Shown here in pieces: positions 14,716 to 25,449 of a stretch of 64,000 nucleotides of DNA (the stretch's first letter is position 1; each line of letters starts with the position of its first letter). Source of the stretch: the human T2T-CHM13v2.0 reference genome, Homo sapiens; NCBI RefSeq assembly GCF_009914755.1, contig NC_060942.1, one strand, 5' to 3'. The notes beneath the pieces are model-generated. The model was not told the DNA's origin. It saw only the letters and a program-made list of their open reading frames with translations, and did no database searches. The translations under genes were made by a program, and so were the position numbers.

Positions 14716-15475
14716 TAACCTTTTTATTCTGGATGATTTTCATAGCATTCTACAGACACATTAGAAAACATCTTCCTGGAATCTCAGCACAATACAAATT
14801 ATATGAGAAAGACAATTTTATATATGTGTATAAAATGTAACTTTCAGAATATATTGTTTTATTTATTCCTTGAAGAAAACACTCACACAGATTTGTTCTA
14901 AGATTCTATTTGTAACATGGAATTGTTAGTTATGTACAGACACTTTTAAACAAGACTTTCCTAGTACATTACCTTAAGGATTCTTAGATTCAAGTATCAA
15001 GAGCGATTTGGGGCTTTTATTCTCGGCTACATAGCTTCATTATATCTAATAATCTTCATTATATGTCTCTGGTTTTTCATCTATGCACTTTTTTCTTTAT
15101 TCTTACCAATAATTTCGGGCCAATGTTAGAATTGTATGTGAAAACAATATGTATTGAGTATGCATTTAACTTTTTTGATATGTTTATTAAGTTCTATATA
15201 ACACTGTTTTTACATTTCCTGTTTTCAAAAATCAGGGCATGGTTTGCCATTACTATTTTTAAAATATATTTTAGATTTACTTGATTCAATAAAGCACAAA
15301 AGGAAGCATTCCACATTTCTCTGACATCTAGTAAGTTGCATTTCTAGGTCAGTTTTCTCATCTTTGCCTTTAAATAATGATTATAATTGAAATCTTATGA
15401 TGTAATAGTCAAATTGACCTTTTCCTTTGTCTACGCCTACTACCAAATAATTTGGAACAGAAATTATTTGAAGTA

Positions 15476-15925
15476 TGTATTAGTCTGCTTGGGCTCCTAT
15501 TACAAAATGCCGTAGACTCAGTGACATAAAAAACAGAAATTTGTTTCTCACAATTATGGAGGTGGGGAGGTCCAAGATCAAGGTGCTGAGAGGGTTGGTT
15601 TCATTCTAAGGCCTCTTCTCCTGGCTCAGGCTGCTGCTACTTCACTGTCTCACTGTGTCCCTCACATGATCTCTTCTTGGTGGGTACTTGCAGAGAGTGG
15701 GGAGGGAGAGAGGAAGGGCAAAAGGGAGAAAGGGGGGGGAGAGAGAGAGAAGAAGAAAGAGAACACTCTTATGTCTCTTCTTTTTATAATGACACCAATC
15801 TCATCAGATTAAGGCCCCACTCTTAAGACCTCATCTCCAAAACTCCATCTGCAATTACCATCACACTGGGGGTTAGAGCTTCAACATGTGAATTTGGGGG
15901 AGGCACAAACCTTTAGTCCATAACA
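15476..15925 (-). mobile_element. MLT1A/B-type MaLR solo LTR
   Basis: tgtattagtctgcttgggct...cagaaatttgtttctcaca...tccaagatcaaggtgc...ttagtccataaca. Confidence 0.88.
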
Positions 15926-17100
15926 GTGTGCAATATCAACAAAAACTTTGAATGCTGTAGTGATTTTTGTAGAAATACAGATTTATGTATCAGTCTCTTT
16001 CACTTATTAAAATTGTCTAATTATGAAGTAATTGATCTGTTTACTTTTTTTACATTGAAAAACGGATTCTTAATTGTCAACGAGCTGTGAGTTAGAGGTG
16101 AGATCTGAGGAGAATCCAACGTGCAAAAATCAGGTCTATTTATTTGCTGTAAGTTTTCCTACAGCCGCCATTGCCAAATCACTAGCCAATTCTAGCTCAT
16201 GGTTAACAAAGTAGAGATCTCAGAAACTCATAGGGATTTGGGAGGCATTTTCAGATGTTGTAACATAAATAAAACCTGCATTTTAGATTTAAAATATTTT
16301 TATATTAGGTAAACATTGAATTGGTTGTACTATCATTTTTTAAACATTTGGATACTGTCATTGAGATAAAATTAGTCTACTGGGAAGCAACTTTCTCTTA
16401 TCCCCTATAAATTATCAATATGCAAATATACTGTAAGTATAATGCAGAGCAGGGTGCATAATACAAACCTGAAGGAAGAACTTAATATATTGATGCAGAT
16501 TAAAGAATAATCTTATTCTTAATTACCCTGAGAAAAGCACTGATGGTTCCTTATTTCACGTCTCCTACTGTTACACAATTTCAATCTTTTTTTCAGAAAT
16601 TTATCCTAGATCCTTCATTTTGAAATTTTGGTCCACCTTCCCCTACCTGCCTGCCCTGTCTTGCATACATATTTAGTGTAGGTCTTACCTGGCAGTTATT
16701 TAAGGGCCTATGACAGCTCTCTGCTATTGTTCTCCAGGTAGTGGAGGTACTGCATTGCAGAACAGCTTGGAGGAGTTAGCCATACCTAAGCATACAAACT
16801 GTTGGAGACTCACAGAGCCATCTGGGTTCACTTCCAACCAAACATAATCTCAGAGCACTTTTTGCTGGTTAGTTTTCAAGTTTTCAGTTACAATAACTCA
16901 ATCCTTCTGTAAGAATCTGAATGAAGGAAGATGTAAAATAAAAAGAATTTGCATTATTTGGTATGTTGACAAATTCTGAACCCATTCACTTGAGGATAAT
17001 ATAGATATGTAAAATGTAGTCTGGGTTTATTAAGGTGAACATTCTATTTCTAACACATGCAACTCTTTTGAAAATACTATTTTTATGAAAGTCAAAAGAT

Positions 17101-17194
17101 ATATTTTGATAATCCATAATTTATTTGAATTATACTTAAATACACATATATTTTGAGAATTCATAATTTATTTGAATTATACTTAAATACACAT
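17101..17194. repeat. 47-bp tandem duplication (2 copies, 2 mismatches)
   Basis: 17101-17147 versus 17148-17194. Confidence 0.92.
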
Positions 17195-17337
17195 ATGAAT
17201 CACCTGGGACTCTTATCTTCTTAAAATGCCAGTTTGGATTCAGTAGGTCTGGGGAGGGGCCTGGGAACCTGCATGTCTATTGCCTTTCTAGGGGATGCTA
17301 ATGTTGCCGGTCTGTGGACCACTTTTTGAGTAGCAAG
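17195..17337. mobile_element. MER5-type hAT-Charlie MITE fragment
   Basis: gaatcacctggg...gattcagtaggtctggggaggggcctgggaacctgcat...ggtctgtggaccactttttgagtagcaag. Confidence 0.8.
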
Positions 17338-18088
17338 TTACAATGAAATACTTTATAATTCTTCCCAACTTCCCAGAAGGTAAAACCTTTTATTTTCTAT
17401 TGTATTAAAAGTTATAAAGCTTTTAAAAGTGTATCAACTGATAGGAAATAAATCATTGTCCTATTTGTTGAGTTATTGTTTAAAAATTGCAAATTGTCAT
17501 TGAACATTATCAACAAATTTTAAATCGAAATTCAAAATAGAAAATAGCTACAAAATTATCAGTGAAGTAAGTGATGGCATTTGTATGCACAGTGATCAGG
17601 TTACCTTAAAAGTACCACATCTACCAGATGAATATCCTACCATATATCAATAACAGTTCTATACACATGCTGCATATGTTTTTTACTGTTTTTTAACAGT
17701 TTAATATTAAATCTGTGTTTTATTATAACTCATGTTAGTAACAGTAATAATTTAAAATTGTTACCAAAACAAATATTAAGATTATTTGCAAATATTTGTA
17801 AGATTTCACCAATTGAGTCAATTGATGATATCAATTGAGATTGTAGCATTGCACAACTGAATTTTCATCAGGGGCCAATCTATGAATACAAGATGATACA
17901 TACAGGACAGCTTTAATTTAGGACTCTTCACTTTATGAAATTTATTAGATATGATGAAACATGTAACTAAAATTTAGATTTAAAGTACAAGAAGATGTAG
18001 TTAAATTGTGACATTTTAAATAGTCCTGTTTTATAGACTTATAAAAGTTGGATACAAGATTAGAAAGGAGGTAGAATTCTATTAGTAA

Positions 18089-18807
18089 GGTTACTGGTGG
18101 CATATCCCTAAGGGTCTGCAGCAAGCTCAATTCTCACCTCCTCAGAAGAAAGAATTTGACCTAGGGGCATAAGGCAGAGTAAGAGACTGAGACAAGTTTT
18201 TGAGCAGGAGTGAAAGTTTATTAAAAAGCTTTAAAGCAGGAATGAAAGGAAGTAAAGTATCCTTGGAAGACGGTCAAGCAGGCAACTTGAGAGATCAAGG
18301 GTATTGTTTAACTTTTGACTTAGGGTTTTATATGTTGGCATCCTTCCGGGGTCTTGCATTACTTCTCCCCTGATTCTTCCCTCGGGGTGGCCTGTCCATA
18401 TGCACAGTGGCCTGTTAGTTCTTGGGGGGTGCAGCATGCCCAGTGTGTTTACTGGAGCTGTACGCATGCTCACTTGAGGCAGTCTTCCCTTACTAGCCCA
18501 GTGTTCCTAGATGGTCATATACTGGTTAAACTCTGCCATTTTGCCTCTTAGTGCGCATGCTTGAGCTCACTTGCCCAACTCCTGAGATCTTATTGGGAAG
18601 CTGCTGATCACCAGTTTGAGGTTTTCCTATCTACTGAGAGACTGCCGTTCTCTGGCGCCAGCTGTGACCTATCATTATTTTAGAGAGGCAGTTTAGCAAC
18701 CGCCTGACCATCACCTGATGGTTGCTGACATTCCTGGTGGGCGTTGGGGTGGAGGGGGGCTTCTCCTTCCCTGCTCATTTCTGACTGCCTACCTATCTAC
18801 TGTAACA
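18089..18807 (-). mobile_element. MER50-like ERV1 solo LTR
   Basis: Minus strand starts tgttacagtagataggtaggcagtcagaaatgagcaggg; about 720 bp; AATAAA on minus near 18217. Confidence 0.85.
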
Positions 18808-19951
18808 GTGGTGCTAATTTTTCTGACAAGAAAAAAGTTACATGATAAATGAAAATTCTGTGGTTGAGAAGGTGCTTCTGGTGGTAGAAAATTAAGAAAA
18901 TGTGATATGTATTGAAGTCATTCAAATTTTAGACAGAATGGTGAATTTGTGACAAAACTGAATTAAAAAAATTACAGCTCACTGAAACAGGTTGAAGGAT
19001 AGGGAATACATGTGAAATTCATTATTAAATATATTTTTATAACTTAGAAAATGATATTCTCAGTGTAGAGAGCATGATAAATTTATTACATCTATAATTA
19101 CACATCTATGAGTTTTCTGATGCTGTTAGAAATCAGAGATCGAGCTAAGTAAGTCTATTTTATAGTTCACAATTGAGTCCTACAAATGTATGAAAATTCA
19201 GAAGTCAATCAATGGAACAATAACGATCTCAATGTTACAAAATCTGGTGATTGTAACCACATTCTCAACTGAATAATAAGACAACTGCTCATGAAATTCA
19301 TATCAGATGTTTCAGAGTATACCGAAGATTATTTTAATAAAAATGATTTTTTATTTCATTGATGTACCAGTGAAATTCAATCTTTTTAGAACCAATTTAA
19401 AAAGGATTAAAAAAGTCCACTGCCAAAAATTCGATTTAGTTTAAGTAAAATACTGGATTAAAGCAGCACTGCTGGAAGAAATAAAACCGAGTGGCGTGAC
19501 AGCAACGTTTAAGGAGAATTAGCCAGAACTTTTCATATACATTGTCATGCATATTTTTTGGACATTGTAGTTGTGAGGATTAATGACGAAGGGTTTGAAC
19601 TCCAAAACACTCCCAATACTATCAATTCTTTATAAGATATTAAACATGTAGATTTAAGATACTGGCAAACATCTAGATATTTTTAAATAAAAGGAAAGCT
19701 TGACAATCAGAAAGCCATGTGGTTTAGAAAAAGCACAATTGAAATATATTATCTGTATTATCAGTTGTGATTAAGGAACTTCTGGAGAAGCCTCAGAAAA
19801 TGGAAGTTTCATCAAATTCATATTTAAATATGCATATGATAGTGATTCTTTAAATATGCATATGATAGTGAATAAAATGTTGATAATTTTCTAACTTGAA
19901 TTTTTATTTTTTTATTTTATTTTTTACTGTTTTCTATTTGTTAGAGAAGTC

Positions 19952-20389
19952 TTTTTTTTTTTGGGAAAGAGTTTCGTGTAATGGTGCGATCTCCACTCAC
20001 CACAACCTCCGCCTCCCGGGCTCAAGCGATTCTCCTGCCTCAGCCTCCTTAGTAGCTACCGCCTTAGTAAGTACCACTTAGTAAGTACCGCCTTAGTAAG
20101 TACCACTTAGTAGCTACCTCCTTAGTAAGTACCACTTAGTAGCTACCTCCTTAGTAAGTACCACTTAGTAGCTACCTCCTTAGTAAGTACCACTTAGTAA
20201 GTACCTCCTTAGTAAGTACCACTTAGTACTACCACCACGCCTGGCTAATTTCGTATTTTTTTTTTTTTAGTAGAGACGGGGTTTCTCCATATTGGTCAGA
20301 CTGGTCTCGAAATCCCGACCTCAGGTGATCCGCCCACCTCAGCCTGCCAAAGGGCTAGGGATTACAGGAGTGAGCCACCGCGCCTGGCC
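19952..20389 (-). mobile_element. AluSp with internal minisatellite
   Basis: AluSp diagnostics (gagtttcg, gtttctccatattggtcag, cccgacctcaggtgatc); near-TSD gagaagtcttt / gagaaatcttt. Confidence 0.9.
20044..20231. repeat. Minisatellite: 13 monomers of 13-15 bp forming a 29-bp higher-order unit
   Basis: cc(t/g)ccttagtaagta alternating with ccacttagta(gc/ag)ta. Confidence 0.97.
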
Positions 20390-20615
20390 GAGAAATCTTT
20401 CTAAAGATCTTCGCATCAAAATTATAGAAATGTGGTTTTACTCTTTCATCAGTCTTAACCTTTATGGGAATCAGCTAAAAGTTACAGACCTCTTCTTAAG
20501 AATACATACACTTAATTAAATACAAAAATATTTAGCGTATAATGAATTTTATTCTACTGAAAACTCATTTCAAAATATCTATTGAGGACAATATCTAGTG
20601 AAACTTTATTATTTT

Positions 20616-20963
20616 TAAAAATGATGAGTTCATGTCCTTTGTAGGGACATGGATGAAATTGGAAATCATCATTCTCAGTAAACTATCGCAAGAACAAAAA
20701 ACCAAACACCGCATATTCTCACTCATAGGTGGGAATTGAACAATGAGAACACATGGACACAGGAAGGGGAACATCACACTCTGGGGACTGTTGTGGGGCG
20801 GGGGGAGGGGGGAGGGATTGCTTTGGGAGATATACCTAATGCTAGATGACGAGTTAGTGGGTGCAGCACACCAGCATGGCACATGTATACATATGTAACT
20901 AACCTGCACATTGTGCACATGTACCCTAAAACTTAAAGTATAATAATAATAAAATAAAATAAA
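20616..20963 (+). mobile_element. 5'-truncated young L1 (L1PA3-like) 3' end
   Basis: Near-consensus 3'UTR with G-rich tract, gacgagttagtgggtgcagcacacc, ccctaaaacttaaagtataataat and tail. Confidence 0.95.
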
Positions 20964-21054
20964 TTTTTTTTTATTTTTTTGAGCAAAATATTAATGGCAA
21001 AAATAAAAAAATACAAATTGTGCAGACAGAATAAAATAAAATATTTTATTAAGA

Positions 21055-21162
21055 GACCCTGTTCGGTGTTTCTAAGTTATATCCTTTATAATAAAGTGGT
21101 AATAGTAAGTAAAGTGCTCTTCTGAGTTCTGTGAGTCATTGTGCCAAATTGTTAAACCTGAC
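21055..21162 (+). mobile_element. LTR fragment (MER21-like)
   Basis: atatcctttataataaa...gtaagtaaagtgctcttctgagttctgtgag. Confidence 0.5.
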
Positions 21163-21497
21163 ACTAGTGTTAAGTTAAGAAATTGGATAAGAAAAATTAG
21201 AAAAGTTAGAAATGTTTAGCTTGCCCTGAATCATGCCTGCACTATGAGACTTGTATTCCATGAAAACAAACTATTCAATAATTGATGATGGGACAATCAG
21301 CTAGACATTACCACAGAGCTGTTTTTAAATAATCCTCATTTTTCTTTAATAATTTCTGCTAATGTGTCCATAATAAATGAAATAATTTCAAATAATTCAT
21401 ATTTCTTAGCTTCCTGATTCATGATTGATCTTTTGATTCTTGTGCCAATGTTATATCAATTTGATTCCTGAGATTAATGCTACTTACATTAATTATA

Positions 21498-21700
21498 AAA
21501 GTTGCTAACACTTACAAGCACTTACTATACACTGGGTCATATAAAAAGCTTTATATCTTTTATATGATTCAATTTACACATGGCACATTTGAGGTGTTTA
21601 TTATTCTCCTTTGAAAGATGAAAATGAGAGAAAGACATGTTAAGAGACTTGCCAAATGATGAAAATCTCTTTGGTGAAGCCCAGATTCAACTCCAGGTTA
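21498..21700 (-). mobile_element. MIR
   Basis: Antisense MIR core: gctaacacttacaagcacttactat...gatgaaaatgagag...gttaagagacttgccaa...gattcaactccagg. Confidence 0.7.
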
Positions 21701-21899
21701 ACTTATTTTGCCAGGGTATGTCTATTTCCATGAAAGAAAGTGTCTGTCTTACTTCTCTTCTTTAAAATTTATAATTAAGTATGGCCATTTTTCCACTTTG
21801 GTTTCCCATATTAATCTTAGTGTCATATCCTTCTTCTAACAAACCCCTTTCCTCAAACCCCATTCTTTTGTTAGTATTCCAGTTTTGTACTTATAACAG

Positions 21900-23260
21900 G
21901 AGGTTGTTTTGCAGATTTAATTTTGTAATTTAATTTACATTTAATTTTATGGCCAAGATCAAGTGCTATGAGATCATCATCAAGATTTACTGTCTCAATT
22001 GTACAATCTCTGTAAAATGATTTGTGAAGCATTCTATCTTTTTATATCTTCTTTCTTTGAAAGAATTTAAACGCTATGGAAACTAGAAACTTCTTCAAAA
22101 TTTGAAAGAATGTATCTGTAAGTCATTTGGCCCGTAAGCATATTTTAGAAAAAAGTGTTGGACACATGGAGAGGTTTTAAGTTTCTTTGTCCATTATTAT
22201 TAAGCTATTCAGGTTTTCTACTCCCCGTTGAATCAATCACAGAAACATCCATTGGGAATTTTTAAGTTCTTTAGTATAGCATTATAAACAATATTTTATT
22301 CTAATTAAAAATATGAAATCTGTTAAACTCTTCTCATTTGTAATTTTGCCCATTAAATGTTTCTGTTTTATTTATTAGACCTATACTTATTTTTTATTTT
22401 TCCTCAAAGAACTAGCTCCTGTATATTAGTTCTACTCTTCTTTTAAAAAAATGTTTTCTAATTCACTCATTAGAATTTGCACAATTTCCTTAGGCTTACA
22501 AAATTTATTTGCACTGATTTTTATTTTTCAAATAACTCAAGAATTTATGACAGGAAAAAATGACCATAAGTACAGTTTTGCTGTACATCACGTTGTTAGC
22601 ATTTTTTAAATATCATATCATTGAAGTTTTGACTATGCACATCATCCAATAATTACTATATAAGTTTAACAATTAATTGATTGCAGTTTTATTGATTGAA
22701 ATTTTGTCCTTTTTTATTTTCTGTTTTATTGCAGGTTCTTCATAGAAACTTTCTACTTGGGTGGATTTAATGAAAGTTTTTTGGGGGGATTACAAGTGTA
22801 TTGGTTTGTTTTCACACTGCTATAAAGATACTACCCAAGACTGGGTAATTTATAAAGAAAAGAGATTTAATTGACTCATAGTTCCACATGTCTGGGAAGG
22901 CTTCAGGAAACTTACAATCATGGCAGAAGAGAAGCAGCCACATTTTACATGGCAGCAGGCAAGAGAGAGAGTGTGTAGGAGGAACTCTCAAACACCTATA
23001 AAACCATCAGATCTTGTGATAACTCACTCACAATCGTGAGAACGGCATGGGGGAACCACCCCAATGATGTAATCACCTCCCACCAGGTCCTGGCCTTGAC
23101 ACCTGGGGATTATGGGGATTACAATTTGAGATAAGATTTGGGTGGGAACACAGAGCCAAACCCTATCAACAAGATCAAAATTTTAAATCATTCCATGGAC
23201 TTTGAATAAAATGTGTTTACTCTATTTGTGTATGGATAGTGTTTAGCAATTAAATCAACT
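21900..23260 (-). mobile_element. Very old antisense L1M ORF2 remnant (hosts THE1D)
   Basis: T-rich degenerate L1 motifs (gctattcaggttttcta, tttgaataaaatgtgtttactct). Confidence 0.5.
22797..23168 (-). mobile_element. THE1D-like MaLR solo LTR
   Basis: tgtattgg...cagagccaaaccctatca; perfect 5-bp TSD acaag (22792-22796, 23169-23173). Confidence 0.93.
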
Positions 23261-23361
23261 TGAGTATACACTTACAACATAATATGAAATAATAAACATT
23301 ATAATTGAATGTGCTACCAATGTTATTATGTACACTATATTCACATATTCAAGTGCATAAT

Positions 23362-23750
23362 ATTCACTAATTGTCATGGAAATGCAAATAAAAAACACAA
23401 TGCAATATTATCTCACCCTAGTTAAAATGGCTATTATCCAAAAGACAGAAAATAACAAATGCTAGTGAGGATATAAAGAAAGGGGAACACTCGTACACTG
23501 TTGATGAGAATGTAAATTAATGCAGCCACTGTGGAAAACAATATAGAGCTTCCTCCAAAAACTAAAAATAGAATTACCATATGAACCTACAATCCTCCTG
23601 CTGGGTATATATCCAAAAGAATGAAAATCGGTATATCGAAGAGATGGCTGCACTCCCATGTTTATTGCTGCGCTACTCACAGTGGCCAAAATATGGACTC
23701 AACCTAATTGCCTATCAATGGATGAATAGATATAGAAAATGTGAAACCTA
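23362..23750 (+). mobile_element. L1 (L1MA-like) ORF2 3' fragment
   Basis: gaaatgcaaataaaaaacacaatg...cactcccatgtttattgctgc...atggatgaatagat. Confidence 0.88.
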
Positions 23751-25449
23751 GACATGACCACAAGATGACTATCCATACTTAAGTTATAGTACAATAGTCC
23801 TTTAAAACAAAGACGAACATTGAAGACATAATTTTCTATCGTTTTTTACTACTTTGATAATCTCAACATGTTTCATTTTTATATATTTTACAAATGTGAT
23901 GTAAATAATTTTTGTCAACTAGATGGTGACTTTGTTTTTCCATATTAAAAAAAGCAACAAATTTTATGTAAATTTGAAGCTCAAGCCAAAGTTCCTTTTG
24001 TAGTGAAAAAGCTAGTAGATGCCCTATATTGTGGTATTAAGCTATGTTAAGCTATCTGTGCTAATGTAGTTATTGTGGCAAAAAGATTTACAGAATCTGA
24101 GTCAGTGAGTCCAATTAGTTCTTTCCTGAATAATGGTTAGGATGGTACAAATTTACTATTTACCTCCACATTCAAGTCATGCAATCAACAGCAATGACTT
24201 TATCTAAGTGCCTTGAAAGTGAATAAAAGCTGCATCACAAAGGATAATGCTTTGAATTGAAGATTCATGTGACAGCCACTGTACTACAAATAAAATGTAA
24301 ATATTTCATTGAGACAGAGCCTAAAAGATGGAGGATATCAGACTCCAGGTCCCACTGATGCACACAGCTCTGGGAGGAGTGAACCATGACTATAAACCAC
24401 AGTCCTACTTAATGGTAACAACTGGGCTGGAGAGGCCACTATAATTGACCCAAATGACTGTATTCTTTCCATTTTTCGTGGTCTCCTGGACTGATCATTA
24501 TTTGTTTTTTCTATATTTCTATTAAGCCATCCTGCCCAAAGGCAGTGGCTTAGATTCAATTCCATTTTAATTATGGTCCAGTAACAACCTTTATCATTGT
24601 TGTTAATATTGATATATTTCAGTGTCCTTCTAATTTTGGGTTTTTCTTCTACCAGCTCTACCCAATTCAAACTATTCTTTTCCATGTCCAAGATTCAATA
24701 AGCTCTTTATGAAACTCTAAATACGTCATTCAAAAGCATTTGATGGCACCTAGAGAATATATTTTAAGCTCTCCAGCAGGATATTTAAGGTCCTCCGTGG
24801 TCTTCTTCCTAAAATTTTCTTACCTCCAACACACTCCTCCATATACCCAGTGTTCCAATGTTGTTTGCTTTCTCTGGCATATTTCTGAGAAAGAAGGCTG
24901 TTAGCTGCAGTGTACAAAACTGCCATTTATTGTGAAATATCTGATTGTGTCAAACTATTTAATTAAAAAAGACGTCCTTTTGAATGATAACCCAAGGAAA
25001 AGAAATTAATCCTTCTCCGTCTGTTCATCTAGTCATGCAGATTGCTTTATTTGCTTTAGAATAATGTTTTGTTATATGCTTTAGAATAATATGTGTTTTT
25101 TAGAATCAGTGACATTAAATAAGTTCAGTTATATATTTTTGTAAATCATGTTAATGCAACTGTCTGGCCAAAGAAAGTGGACACAAAAATGAATAAATAC
25201 ATAAAAATAAACACGTGAATAAAACTGTATTTTTGATAGTTTTACCTGCATGTGTATTTGTTGTTTTTTATGAAGTAAAAGAAAACAAAGACTTCTGGAG
25301 AAGAACTGGTTTCTAAAAAACACAATATTCCTGTTCATATTTTACAAACTTTGATCTCTAGATGATTTATAATCTTATTTCTACAATTAAAAAATAAAAA
25401 CATTTCAATCGAAAGAATAAATGTTATTTCCAGGACATGGACCAGGACT

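What the first reader, a model, noticed from the sequence alone, without database searches (positions are those of the whole stretch)
17982..21015. Hidden ZMYM1-like / hAT-transposase fossil gene shattered by three younger insertions
Seen: removing MER50, AluSp and the L1 leaves about 1.5 kb that translates, with stops and frameshifts, into ordered blocks KVQEDVVKL*HFK*SCFID, LKSFKF*TEW*ICD, KQVEG..VKFIIK, FLMLLEIR, IQKSINGTITISMLQNLV, KIILIKMIFYFID, RTFHIHCHAYFLDIVVVR, LEFLF, NLSKDLRIKIIEM and STENSFQNIY. Established: HCxAHxL is the hAT transposase CxxH motif, and ZMYM1 carries a domesticated hAT-derived C-terminal region. From my recollection of ZMYM1 (LKSLEFWREYQFCD, KQIEG, FLELLEMR, MLQDIV, AILIKERFLGFVD, RALYIHCYAHFLD, ILSKELQNKTIDI), the match extends to lineage-specific residues beyond generic hAT motifs. 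Inference: this is an ancient ZMYM1 retrocopy, a lost ZMYM1 paralogue that could be intact in other mammals, or a relic of the transposon family that gave rise to it. I found no terminal inverted repeats or poly(A).
Basis: partly seen in the sequence, partly recalled or inferred. Interest (0 to 1): 0.8.

Follow-up and report, generated by a model that had tools for sequence, protein, structure and literature searches.

The report
Decayed ZMYM1-like hAT transposon fossil
A long-dead copy of an ancient cut-and-paste transposon, from the same family whose transposase became the tail end of the human ZMYM1 gene, lies broken in a gene desert on chromosome 18; it is real, but it is one of many such relics.

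Summary
With the two inner insertions removed, window 17934-20445 aligns in one colinear piece to the transposase-derived last exon of ZMYM1 (chr1 of the same genome). The match is 58% DNA identity over 1454 columns, 173 bits against at most 45.4 in 100 shuffles. At protein level it is 146 of 430 residues identical, with 17 stops and 22 frameshifts. It fits ZMYM1 specifically: a THAP12-type hAT protein scores at noise level.

The locus is not unique and not the closest relative. At least 16 other stop-riddled human loci are ZMYM1-like, and most match ZMYM1 better. The tree is star-like, with ZMYM1 on a very short branch. Homology between copies starts about 30-45 nt upstream of the ZMYM1 splice acceptor, beside an ATG that opens the frame. 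In other copies it stops about 58 nt after the stop codon. No MYM-finger exons lie upstream.

Best reading: a neutral, decayed copy of an early-mammalian Tip-type hAT transposon, the family from which ZMYM1 took its terminal exon. It was later hit by an LTR-type repeat and an Alu, and a young L1 lies at its 3' edge. A retrocopy or lost paralogue is unlikely. No terminal inverted repeats were found. Whether Dfam or RepeatMasker already names the family could not be checked. Interest is modest.

The parts
17741..18088 (+). 5' part of the hAT fossil. It covers the short leader, the decayed start-codon position (about 17773-17775, ATA) and ZMYM1 ORF aa ~7-105, including the remnant of the zinc-finger-like CYSCQLFC stretch.
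   Evidence: 17934-18084 aligns to aa 55-105, score 47 against shuffle max 30. 17741-18083 aligns to the 5' end of the chr2:72.9 Mb copy, score 34 against shuffle max 21. The family profile hits 17786-18082 at E 0.0036. Three-way alignment across the ZMYM1 acceptor and ATG.
18089..18807 (.).
   Evidence: 2170 first-look candidates. All 39 other scored copies are 80-83% identical and reach over query 2-719. The ZMYM1 alignment runs straight across the junction.
18808..19951 (+). Central part of the fossil, ZMYM1 ORF aa ~106-495. It covers the stretch that Pfam calls DUF4371 in ZMYM1 (aa 180-354) and the HCHAY remnant of the CxxH motif (19537-19551).
   Evidence: blastn E 2e-44. Shuffle controls. 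tblastn best hit in the whole window is 19516-19632, E 1.3e-4. nhmmer 18897-19949 at E 1.8e-40, and E 2.4e-37 with ZMYM1 left out of the profile.
19952..20389 (-). Younger insertion: an Alu-type SINE in minus orientation (T-run at its left end), flanked by GAGAAGTC / GAGAAATC. It carries a private 29-bp x 6.4 tandem array at 20048-20233.
   Evidence: 7086 first-look candidates. Matches fall in two blocks, 19976-20057 and 20231-20391, which lie about 17 nt apart at other loci. TRF. Flanking repeat read. The Alu name and orientation are recalled, not tested.
20390..20445 (+). Last colinear piece of the fossil, ZMYM1 ORF aa ~500-518 (NLSKDLRIKIIEM against ILSKELQNKTIDI).
   Evidence: The best + strand local alignment of 20390-20615 lands exactly colinear, but its score of 22 is within the shuffle range (max 24). 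nhmmer 20390-20439 at E 0.06, third-best hit in the window.
20547..20564 (+). Possible remnant of the core motif of the hAT dimerisation domain (STENSF = ZMYM1 aa ~709-714). If real, about 560 nt between aa 518 and 705 have been lost.
   Evidence: An exact 6-residue match was reached by 3 of 1000 and 14 of 1000 shuffles. 11 of 12 bases are identical over ENSF. Other copies carry E-x-S-F-S at this position. Not significant in the gapped alignment.
20612..20963 (+). Young L1-type 3' end with an A-rich tail, at the 3' edge of the detectable fossil.
   Evidence: 594 first-look candidates. All 39 other scored copies are 96-98% identical over query 15/20 to ~366. The L1 name is recalled from the sequence, not tested.

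Best explanation
The stretch is a dead, neutrally decaying copy of an ancient autonomous hAT DNA transposon. The transposon is of the Tip100-like architecture (DUF4371 plus a C-terminal hAT dimerisation domain). It belongs to the family whose transposase ORF was captured as the terminal exon of ZMYM1.

Inferred history:
- The element inserted by cut-and-paste in an early mammalian ancestor and lost its coding capacity. It now has 17 stops and 22 frameshifts over 430 aligned codons.
- It probably lost most of its C-terminal third.
- It was later split by an LTR-type repeat and an Alu, and a young L1 landed at its 3' edge.
- It resembles ZMYM1 in 'lineage-specific' residues because ZMYM1, held by selection, is the best-preserved member of the family, not because the locus descends from the ZMYM1 gene.

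Shown here: the homology, its colinearity, the multi-copy family, and the insertion borders.
Inferred: the transposition origin, the age, and the lack of present function.
For: 1. Significant colinear homology to the ZMYM1 terminal exon. Pfam finds DUF4371 (E 5.9e-24) and Dimer_Tnp_hAT (E 1e-15) in that exon.

2. A multi-copy family. A search of the same genome with the exon gave 42 matches, a stated lower bound. 18 distinct stop-riddled loci that are neither ZMYM1 nor THAP12 copies have E <= 0.01.

3. I examined 16 of those loci in detail. Eleven score higher against ZMYM1 than chr18 does at 251. Examples: chr2:72.9 Mb scores 558 over aa 6-680 with 267 of 644 identical and 34 stops; chrX:140.7 Mb scores 459; chr13:75.6 Mb scores 410.

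4. A profile built from the fossils alone, without ZMYM1, still finds chr18 at E 2.4e-37.

5. A star-like pattern.
- Fossils are 49-63% nt identical to ZMYM1 but only 35-50% identical to chr18.
- ZMYM1 agrees with the majority base of the fossils at 1464 of 1843 sites (79%), chr18 at 704 of 1183 (59.5%) and the other fossils at 50-68%.
- In the ML tree ZMYM1's branch is 0.059 against 0.41-1.31 for the fossils. chr18 pairs with chr7:10.3 Mb (support 87), not with ZMYM1.

6. Limits of homology fit an element rather than an mRNA.
- The chr2 copy aligns to ZMYM1 from L001 971, which is 20 nt upstream of the acceptor ...ctcccaaag|CTTTCT (score 42 against shuffle max 18).
- chr18 17741-18083 aligns to that same 5' end.
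- The ZMYM1 frame opens at an ATG (L001 964-966) 27 nt upstream of the acceptor. That position aligns to AGG in chr2 and ATA in chr18.
- In other copies, homology to ZMYM1 ends 58 nt after the stop codon.

7. Contrast with THAP12. Its copies range from 42% to 96% identity, as expected for pseudogenes spawned over time. All ZMYM1-like fossils are uniformly old, 31-45% aa identity on the ZMYM1-anchored alignment, as expected for one ancient burst.

8. Kojima and Jurka 2011 (PMC3212892, passages read) state that ZMYM1 exists only in eutherians and that its C-terminal part derives from a hAT transposase.
Against: - No terminal inverted repeats. In 15 comparisons of 5' ends with reverse-complemented 3' ends, none beat the shuffles; the lowest fraction of shuffles reaching the real score was 0.17.
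- No target-site duplication could be tested, because the 3' end of the chr18 copy is missing.
- Pfam sees no hAT domain directly in the chr18 translations: 0 relevant families in 5 read-through frames and 35 open pieces. PDB sequences gave nothing either.
- The intron-side homology is short, about 20-45 nt. Its part upstream of 17934 is marginal on its own (23 against shuffle max 21). It was not seen in the chr13 copy.
- The 5' piece 17786-18082 is not reported by the profile that lacks ZMYM1.
- All multiple alignments were anchored on ZMYM1. This inflates every copy's identity to ZMYM1 and shortens its branch.
- The chr18 locus was not among the 42 matches, where a stricter first look had been applied.
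Confidence: 0.85

Rival explanations
1. It is a processed pseudogene (retrocopy) of the ZMYM1 mRNA, 5'-truncated near the start of the last exon and then decayed.
For: ZMYM1 is the closest intact sequence. Detectable homology lies almost entirely within the last exon. The tests for upstream MYM exons have low power at this level of decay.
Against: - At least 16 sibling loci are equally old, and no young high-identity ZMYM1 copies exist, unlike the THAP12 copies.
- Two copies (chr2, chr18) begin at the same place, next to the ATG upstream of the acceptor, on the intron side.
- Several copies keep the 5' end and lack the 3' end. That is the opposite of L1-mediated retrocopies.
- In other copies, homology stops 58 nt after the stop codon.
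- No poly(A) tract was found.
- No zf-FCS signal upstream: Pfam 0 of 9 frames. In the exon alignments, 11 of 12 comparisons were within shuffles; the twelfth scored 40 against 37, in a frame that is not the finger frame.
Confidence: 0.07
2. It is a DNA-level duplicate of the ZMYM1 terminal exon region, that is a lost paralogue or unitary pseudogene that may be intact in other mammals.
For: Homology crossing the acceptor is compatible with a genomic duplicate. No other mammalian genome could be inspected here.
Against: - chr18 is not sister to ZMYM1 and is among the more diverged copies.
- Homology is confined to the ORF plus a few tens of bases, with no further intron or 3'UTR sequence.
- A dispersed family of at least 17 copies on 11 chromosomes (plus chr18) is not what segmental duplication gives.
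Confidence: 0.05
3. The resemblance is chance similarity in AT-rich DNA.
For: Pfam and PDB searches of the raw translations found nothing. The flanking blocks are individually weak.
Against: 173 bits against at most 45.4 in 100 shuffles. Score 251 against at most 80 in 100 shuffles. nhmmer E 1.8e-40 on the uncut window, with the three top hits colinear.
Confidence: 0.01

Closest known systems
ZMYM1 terminal exon. This is the hAT-transposase-derived C-terminal region of a MYM zinc-finger gene, at chr1:34.976 Mb in this assembly. I inferred the name from three things: MYM-finger exons 8-15 kb upstream on the same strand, the domain content and Kojima and Jurka 2011.
   Same: Colinear homology over ORF aa ~7/55-518, at 58% nt and 34% aa identity. 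It shares the positions of the start codon and of the region that serves as splice acceptor in ZMYM1.
   Different: The chr18 copy has 17 stops and 22 frameshifts, no MYM exons and no significant C-terminal third. It is one of many dispersed copies. ZMYM1 is open (769 aa) and sits on a very short branch.
Tip group of hAT transposons (Tip100, BuT2). BuT2 carries DUF4371 plus the hATC dimerisation domain (Rossato et al. 2014, PMC3942097, passages read).
   Same: The same two Pfam domains occur in the ZMYM1 exon to which the fossil aligns. Transposases in this group are several hundred residues long.
   Different: No direct comparison with a bona fide Tip100 sequence was possible. No TIRs or 8-bp duplications could be shown. 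[quoted passage not shown]
Autonomous human hAT families listed in Repbase: Zaphod, Arthur1/MER69C and the EuthAT entries (Kojima 2018, PMC5753468, passages read).
   Same: They are ancient, decayed, transposase-bearing hAT fossils of the human genome. The family found here may be one of them.
   Different: The fossil shows no similarity to the THAP12-type protein. I recall, from no call here, that the 2001 human genome paper linked THAP12 to Zaphod.
THAP12 (chr11:76.28 Mb) and its pseudogene copies.
   Same: Also a DUF4371-type hAT-derived host gene with dispersed copies.
   Different: Its copies span 42-96% identity, and at least one (chr8:79.19 Mb) carries the N-terminal host part in the same open frame. 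They form a set distinct from the ZMYM1-like fossils. ZMYM1 and THAP12 are 27% identical.

Membership tests
hAT superfamily transposon | Transposase core homologous to hAT transposases (Pfam DUF4371 region, RNase-H-like fold) | tested here: met
   Met indirectly. The fossil aligns colinearly to ZMYM1 aa 62-517, which includes the DUF4371 match at aa 180-354 (E 5.9e-24). Direct Pfam scans of the chr18 translations found no hAT family.
hAT superfamily transposon | C-terminal hAT dimerisation domain (PF05699) | tested here: inconclusive
   Present in ZMYM1 at aa 659-745. In chr18 only the 6-residue STENSF match remains (3 of 1000 and 14 of 1000 shuffles reach it). The gapped alignment is at noise level, and nhmmer finds no hit beyond profile position 1546.
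hAT superfamily transposon | Short terminal inverted repeats | tested here: not met
   Fifteen comparisons of 5' ends (chr2, chr18, ZMYM1 intron) with reverse-complemented 3' ends of 5 copies were all within shuffles. Decay may have erased them.
hAT superfamily transposon | 8-bp target-site duplication | not testable with these tools
   The 3' end of the chr18 copy is missing, and no held copy has both ends.
hAT superfamily transposon | Conserved CxxH motif | tested here: inconclusive
   ZMYM1 has HCYAH. The fossil has HCHAY at the aligned position, so the cysteine is kept and the histidine position reads tyrosine. That this motif defines hAT is recalled, not tested.
ZMYM1 processed pseudogene | Upstream MYM-finger exons joined without introns | tested here: not met
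   Pfam zf-FCS was found in 0 of 9 read-through frames upstream of the chr18, chr2 and chr13 copies. Alignments of the two ZMYM1 finger exons gave 11 of 12 within shuffles; the twelfth was marginal and in a non-finger frame. The test has low power at this decay.
ZMYM1 processed pseudogene | No intron sequence; 3'UTR and poly(A) present | tested here: not met
   Homology of the chr2 and chr18 copies reaches 20-45 nt to the intron side of the acceptor. No homology to ZMYM1 downstream sequence was found in chr18. In other copies it ends 58 nt after the stop codon. No poly(A) was seen.
Tip100-like (Tip) group within hAT | Phylogenetic grouping with Tip100/BuT2 transposases | not tested
   Only the shared domain architecture (DUF4371 + hATC) is known. 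No Tip100 sequence was available.

The most novel reading that the evidence does not exclude
The ZMYM1-like fossils, chr18 among them, are an uncatalogued early-mammalian Tip-type hAT family that is the direct progenitor of ZMYM1's terminal exon. The element was compact, about 2.4-2.5 kb, with roughly 30 nt of leader and roughly 60 nt of trailer. Its own start codon lay 27 nt upstream of the site that became the ZMYM1 splice acceptor. On this reading the birth of this eutherian gene by transposase capture can be reconstructed base by base from human fossils alone. The 2011 statement that ZMYM1's hAT part is closest to plant elements would then reflect a gap in the repeat libraries.
Probability: 0.3. 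Interest if true: 0.5.

Novelty: new member of a known kind. Interest (0 to 1): 0.3.

Why it matters
The chr18 locus on its own is an ordinary, functionless transposon relic.

Its value is as one witness among at least 17 that the transposon family behind the eutherian-specific gene ZMYM1 left recognisable copies in the human genome. Those copies show three things:
- which part of the gene came from the element: the whole terminal exon, from the element's own ATG;
- that the splice acceptor lies inside the former ORF;
- that ZMYM1 has stayed close to the ancestral transposase sequence.

If the family is not yet in Dfam or Repbase, it would add a missing source element for a host-transposase fusion gene. 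If it is, the locus is simply an unannotated or annotated copy.

Tried and rejected
1. Pfam on read-through frames and on 35 open + strand pieces gave only chance hits (PHD_like, NinH, TPR_10; E 0.01-0.04) and no hAT family.

2. PDB sequence search with two read-through frames gave 0 hits at E <= 10.

3. Rfam at gathering thresholds on 17000-22000 gave 0 hits.

4. A DNA search of the own genome with 18808-19951 found only the locus itself and a 40-nt low-complexity match. The family is too diverged for that tool.

5. I ran a variant of my aligner with cheap long jumps on the uncut window 15000-24000.
- It kept the core 18820-19910.
- It chained noise at both flanks: a jump from 16603 to 18818 that skipped the real 5' block, and a jump from 19910 to 21145.
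- I rejected its flanks and tested each flank separately instead.

6. The C-terminal third of ZMYM1 against 20430-22500 was not significant.

7. Nothing in 17000-17700, 20964-21400 or 21400-22000 clearly beat shuffles against the ZMYM1 locus. The closest was 17000-17700 on the minus strand, 27 against shuffle max 26, a non-colinear hit in the ZMYM1 intron.

8. The terminal inverted repeats I thought I saw by eye were not supported by shuffles.

9. Comparison of upstream flanks between copies was swamped by Alu-type repeats at ~80% identity and gave nothing usable.

10. The chr13 copy showed no 5' flank homology.

11. Literature.
- 'ZMYM1 + hAT + transposase' returned 2 papers.
- 'Zaphod + Tip100' returned 3 papers.
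- A five-term search with ZMYM1, Tip100, Arthur1, Zaphod and DUF4371 found no paper that holds ZMYM1 together with any of the other terms.
- 'EuthAT' returned only unrelated words.
- The Cosby et al. preprint text does not mention ZMYM, and its supplements are closed.
- The held supplement of Frith 2022 lists no ZMYM1 or Tip100 entry. The full fossil list is on GitHub and could not be seen, so this locus may already be catalogued there.

12. Earlier findings of this scan were not open to the session.
Full report
**What is in the sequence.** The window is human chr18:1.612-1.676 Mb, in a gene-poor stretch. Direct family searches see nothing in them. Pfam on read-through frames and on 35 open pieces gave no hAT family. 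PDB sequences gave no hit.

**Getting a reference from the same genome.** The window's own genome can be searched. Pfam DUF4371 (PF14291) found five places in it. The best is a 769-aa open frame at chr1:34.976 Mb.
- It carries DUF4371 (aa 180-354, E 5.9e-24) and the hAT dimerisation domain (aa 659-745, E 1e-15).
- MYM-type zinc-finger exons lie 8 and 15 kb upstream on the same strand.
- I therefore take it to be the terminal exon of ZMYM1. That name is my inference, in line with Kojima and Jurka 2011 (PMC3212892, passages read). They describe ZMYM1 as eutherian-only, with a hAT-derived C-terminal part.

**Is the resemblance more than chance?** Yes, by four separate tests.
- tblastn of the exon against all 64 kb puts its best hit at 19516-19632 (E 1.3e-4).
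- With the three insertions cut out, blastn gives one 1454-column alignment from window 17934 to 20445, onto ORF aa 55-518. It has 58% identity, 173 bits and E 2e-44. The best of 100 dinucleotide shuffles reached 45.4 bits.
- My frameshift-tolerant protein-to-DNA alignment scores 251: 146 of 430 pairs identical, 17 stops, 22 frameshifts. Controls were lower: 100 shuffles reached at most 80, the reversed protein 46, the minus strand 72 and the THAP12-type hAT protein 47. So the match is to ZMYM1 in particular, not to hAT proteins in general.
- On the uncut window, an nhmmer profile of 19 related copies (chr18 excluded) gives three top hits. They are colinear and end at the insertion borders: 18897-19949 (E 1.8e-40), 17786-18082 (E 0.0036) and 20390-20439 (E 0.06).

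**The two ends.**
- The 5' block is significant on its own: 17934-18084 onto aa 55-105, score 47 against shuffle max 30.
- The short piece after the Alu lands exactly colinear, but its score is within noise.
- Beyond 20445 there is no significant homology.
- The STENSF hexapeptide at 20547-20564 is nominally unusual: 3 of 1000 and 14 of 1000 shuffles reach it. It sits on the family's E-x-S-F-S motif, so it may be a last remnant of the dimerisation domain after a deletion of about 560 nt.

**The insertions.**
- 18089-18807 is a complete unit of a dispersed repeat. All 39 other scored copies are 80-83% identical and reach over positions 2-719.
- 19952-20389 is a very high-copy SINE, matched in two blocks. 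It carries a private 29-bp x 6.4 tandem array and is flanked by GAGAAGTC / GAGAAATC.
- 20612-20963 is a young repeat, 96-98% identical to other copies.
- The first two clearly split the fossil. The L1 lies past the last significant homology.
No repeat library was available.

**Not unique.** Searching the genome with the ZMYM1 exon returned 42 matches, a stated lower bound.
- Setting aside ZMYM1 itself, THAP12 and its copies, and one intact ORF on chr7, 18 distinct stop-riddled loci have E <= 0.01.
- I aligned 16 of them with the same method.
- Eleven match ZMYM1 better than chr18 does. Examples: chr2:72.9 Mb scores 558 over aa 6-680 with 41% identity and 34 stops; chrX:140.7 Mb scores 459; chr13:75.6 Mb scores 410; chr1:94.0 Mb scores 396.
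- The chr18 locus was not in the list, because that search used a stricter first look.

**Relationship among the copies.**
- On ZMYM1-anchored columns, the fossils are 49-63% nt identical to ZMYM1 but only 35-50% identical to chr18.
- Against the leave-one-out majority base, chr18 agrees at 704 of 1183 sites, the other fossils at 50-68%, and ZMYM1 at 1464 of 1843.
- I built an ML tree of the 17 rows with at least 400 nt in the shared region; five shorter rows were dropped.
  - It is star-like, with internal supports mostly 17-48.
  - ZMYM1 has a terminal branch of 0.059, against 0.41-1.31 for the fossils.
  - chr18 pairs with chr7:10.3 Mb (support 87), not with ZMYM1.
- A profile of the fossils alone still finds chr18 at E 2.4e-37, though it no longer reports the 5' piece.
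- Anchoring on ZMYM1 biases these figures toward ZMYM1. The qualitative picture is still many equally old copies around one conserved member.

**Transposon copy or retrocopy?**
- The ZMYM1 frame opens at an ATG (L001 964-966) just after a stop, 27 nt upstream of a typical acceptor...ttctcccaaag|CTTTCT.
- The chr2 copy aligns to ZMYM1 from L001 971, which is upstream of that acceptor (score 42 against shuffle max 18).
- chr18 17741-18083 aligns to the same end of the chr2 copy (score 34 against shuffle max 21). The part upstream of 17934 is marginal on its own, 23 against 21.
- In the three-way alignment the ATG position reads AGG in chr2 and ATA in chr18.
- At the other end, homology between ZMYM1 and other copies stops 58 nt after the stop codon.
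- No MYM-finger signal lies upstream of the chr18, chr2 or chr13 copies. That test is weak at this level of decay.
- Several copies keep the 5' end but lack the 3' end.
- THAP12 copies span 42-96% identity. No young ZMYM1 copy exists.
- Together this favours independent insertions of a compact element over reverse-transcribed ZMYM1 mRNAs.
- Against it, I could show no terminal inverted repeats and could not test target-site duplications.

**Mechanism and age.** The most likely history has three steps.
- A Tip-type hAT element was active in early mammals. The domain pair DUF4371 + hATC also occurs in the Tip-group element BuT2 (Rossato et al. 2014, PMC3942097, passages read).
- One copy, sitting in an intron of a MYM-finger gene, was captured by splicing into its ORF. 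This matches the general rule described by Cosby et al. (bioRxiv 10.1101/2020.05.07.082677, passages read).
- The other copies, chr18 among them, decayed neutrally.

The chr18 copy is about 40% different from the family majority base. It is far older than the repeats inserted into it, which are 80-98% identical to their own copies. I could not date it against other species. I see no sign of present function. RefSeq annotates nothing here.

**Novelty.**
- Kojima 2018 lists autonomous human hAT families in Repbase, including Zaphod, Arthur1/MER69C and the EuthAT entries (PMC5753468, passages read). I could not compare sequences with them.
- In 2011 the same group wrote that ZMYM1's hAT part was closest to plant elements. 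That suggests no close human family was known then.
- My searches found no paper linking ZMYM1 to a named human repeat family.
- The locus may still be listed in Dfam, or in the protein-fossil set of Frith 2022, whose full list I could not see.

**Verdict.** It is an ordinary member of a dispersed ancient transposon family, not a special ZMYM1 relative.

Noticed in passing
window 20048-20233: The Alu-type insertion carries a private tandem array, period 29, 6.4 copies, 94% matches. It separates two Alu blocks that lie about 17 nt apart at other loci.
   Followed up: partly
L001 961-995 (chr1:34.9756 Mb): The ZMYM1 terminal-exon frame opens at a real ATG directly after a TAA, 27 nt upstream of the likely splice acceptor. 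The fossils align across this point. The acceptor therefore seems to lie inside the former transposase ORF.
   Followed up: partly
L012+L038 (chr2:72.913-72.920 Mb, minus strand): This is the best-preserved ZMYM1-like fossil found: aa 6-680, 267 of 644 identical, 34 stops, 26 frameshifts. An L1 ORF1-type fragment (Pfam Tnp_22_dsRBD, E 1.5e-7) and Alu-type repeats lie upstream of it.
   Followed up: partly
L003/L010 (chr8:79.19 Mb, minus strand): A THAP12-like copy, 96% identical to the chr11 gene, has a 736-772-aa open frame. In that frame the N-terminal host part runs straight into the hAT part, so it looks like a young retrocopy with a long open frame.
   Followed up: no
genome-wide: THAP12-like copies span 42-96% identity. 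The lower-identity ones (chr6:11.38 Mb, chr6:77.84 Mb, chr13:25.45 Mb; 42-49% overall, higher in sub-stretches) could be older THAP12 copies or fossils of a second Tip-type family. None is among the ZMYM1-like fossil loci.
   Followed up: no
L021 (chr7:151.04 Mb): An intact 738-aa DUF4371-type open frame, 21% identical to the ZMYM1 exon. It is another domesticated hAT gene. Its placement inside the fossil clade in the tree is a long-branch artefact.
   Followed up: no
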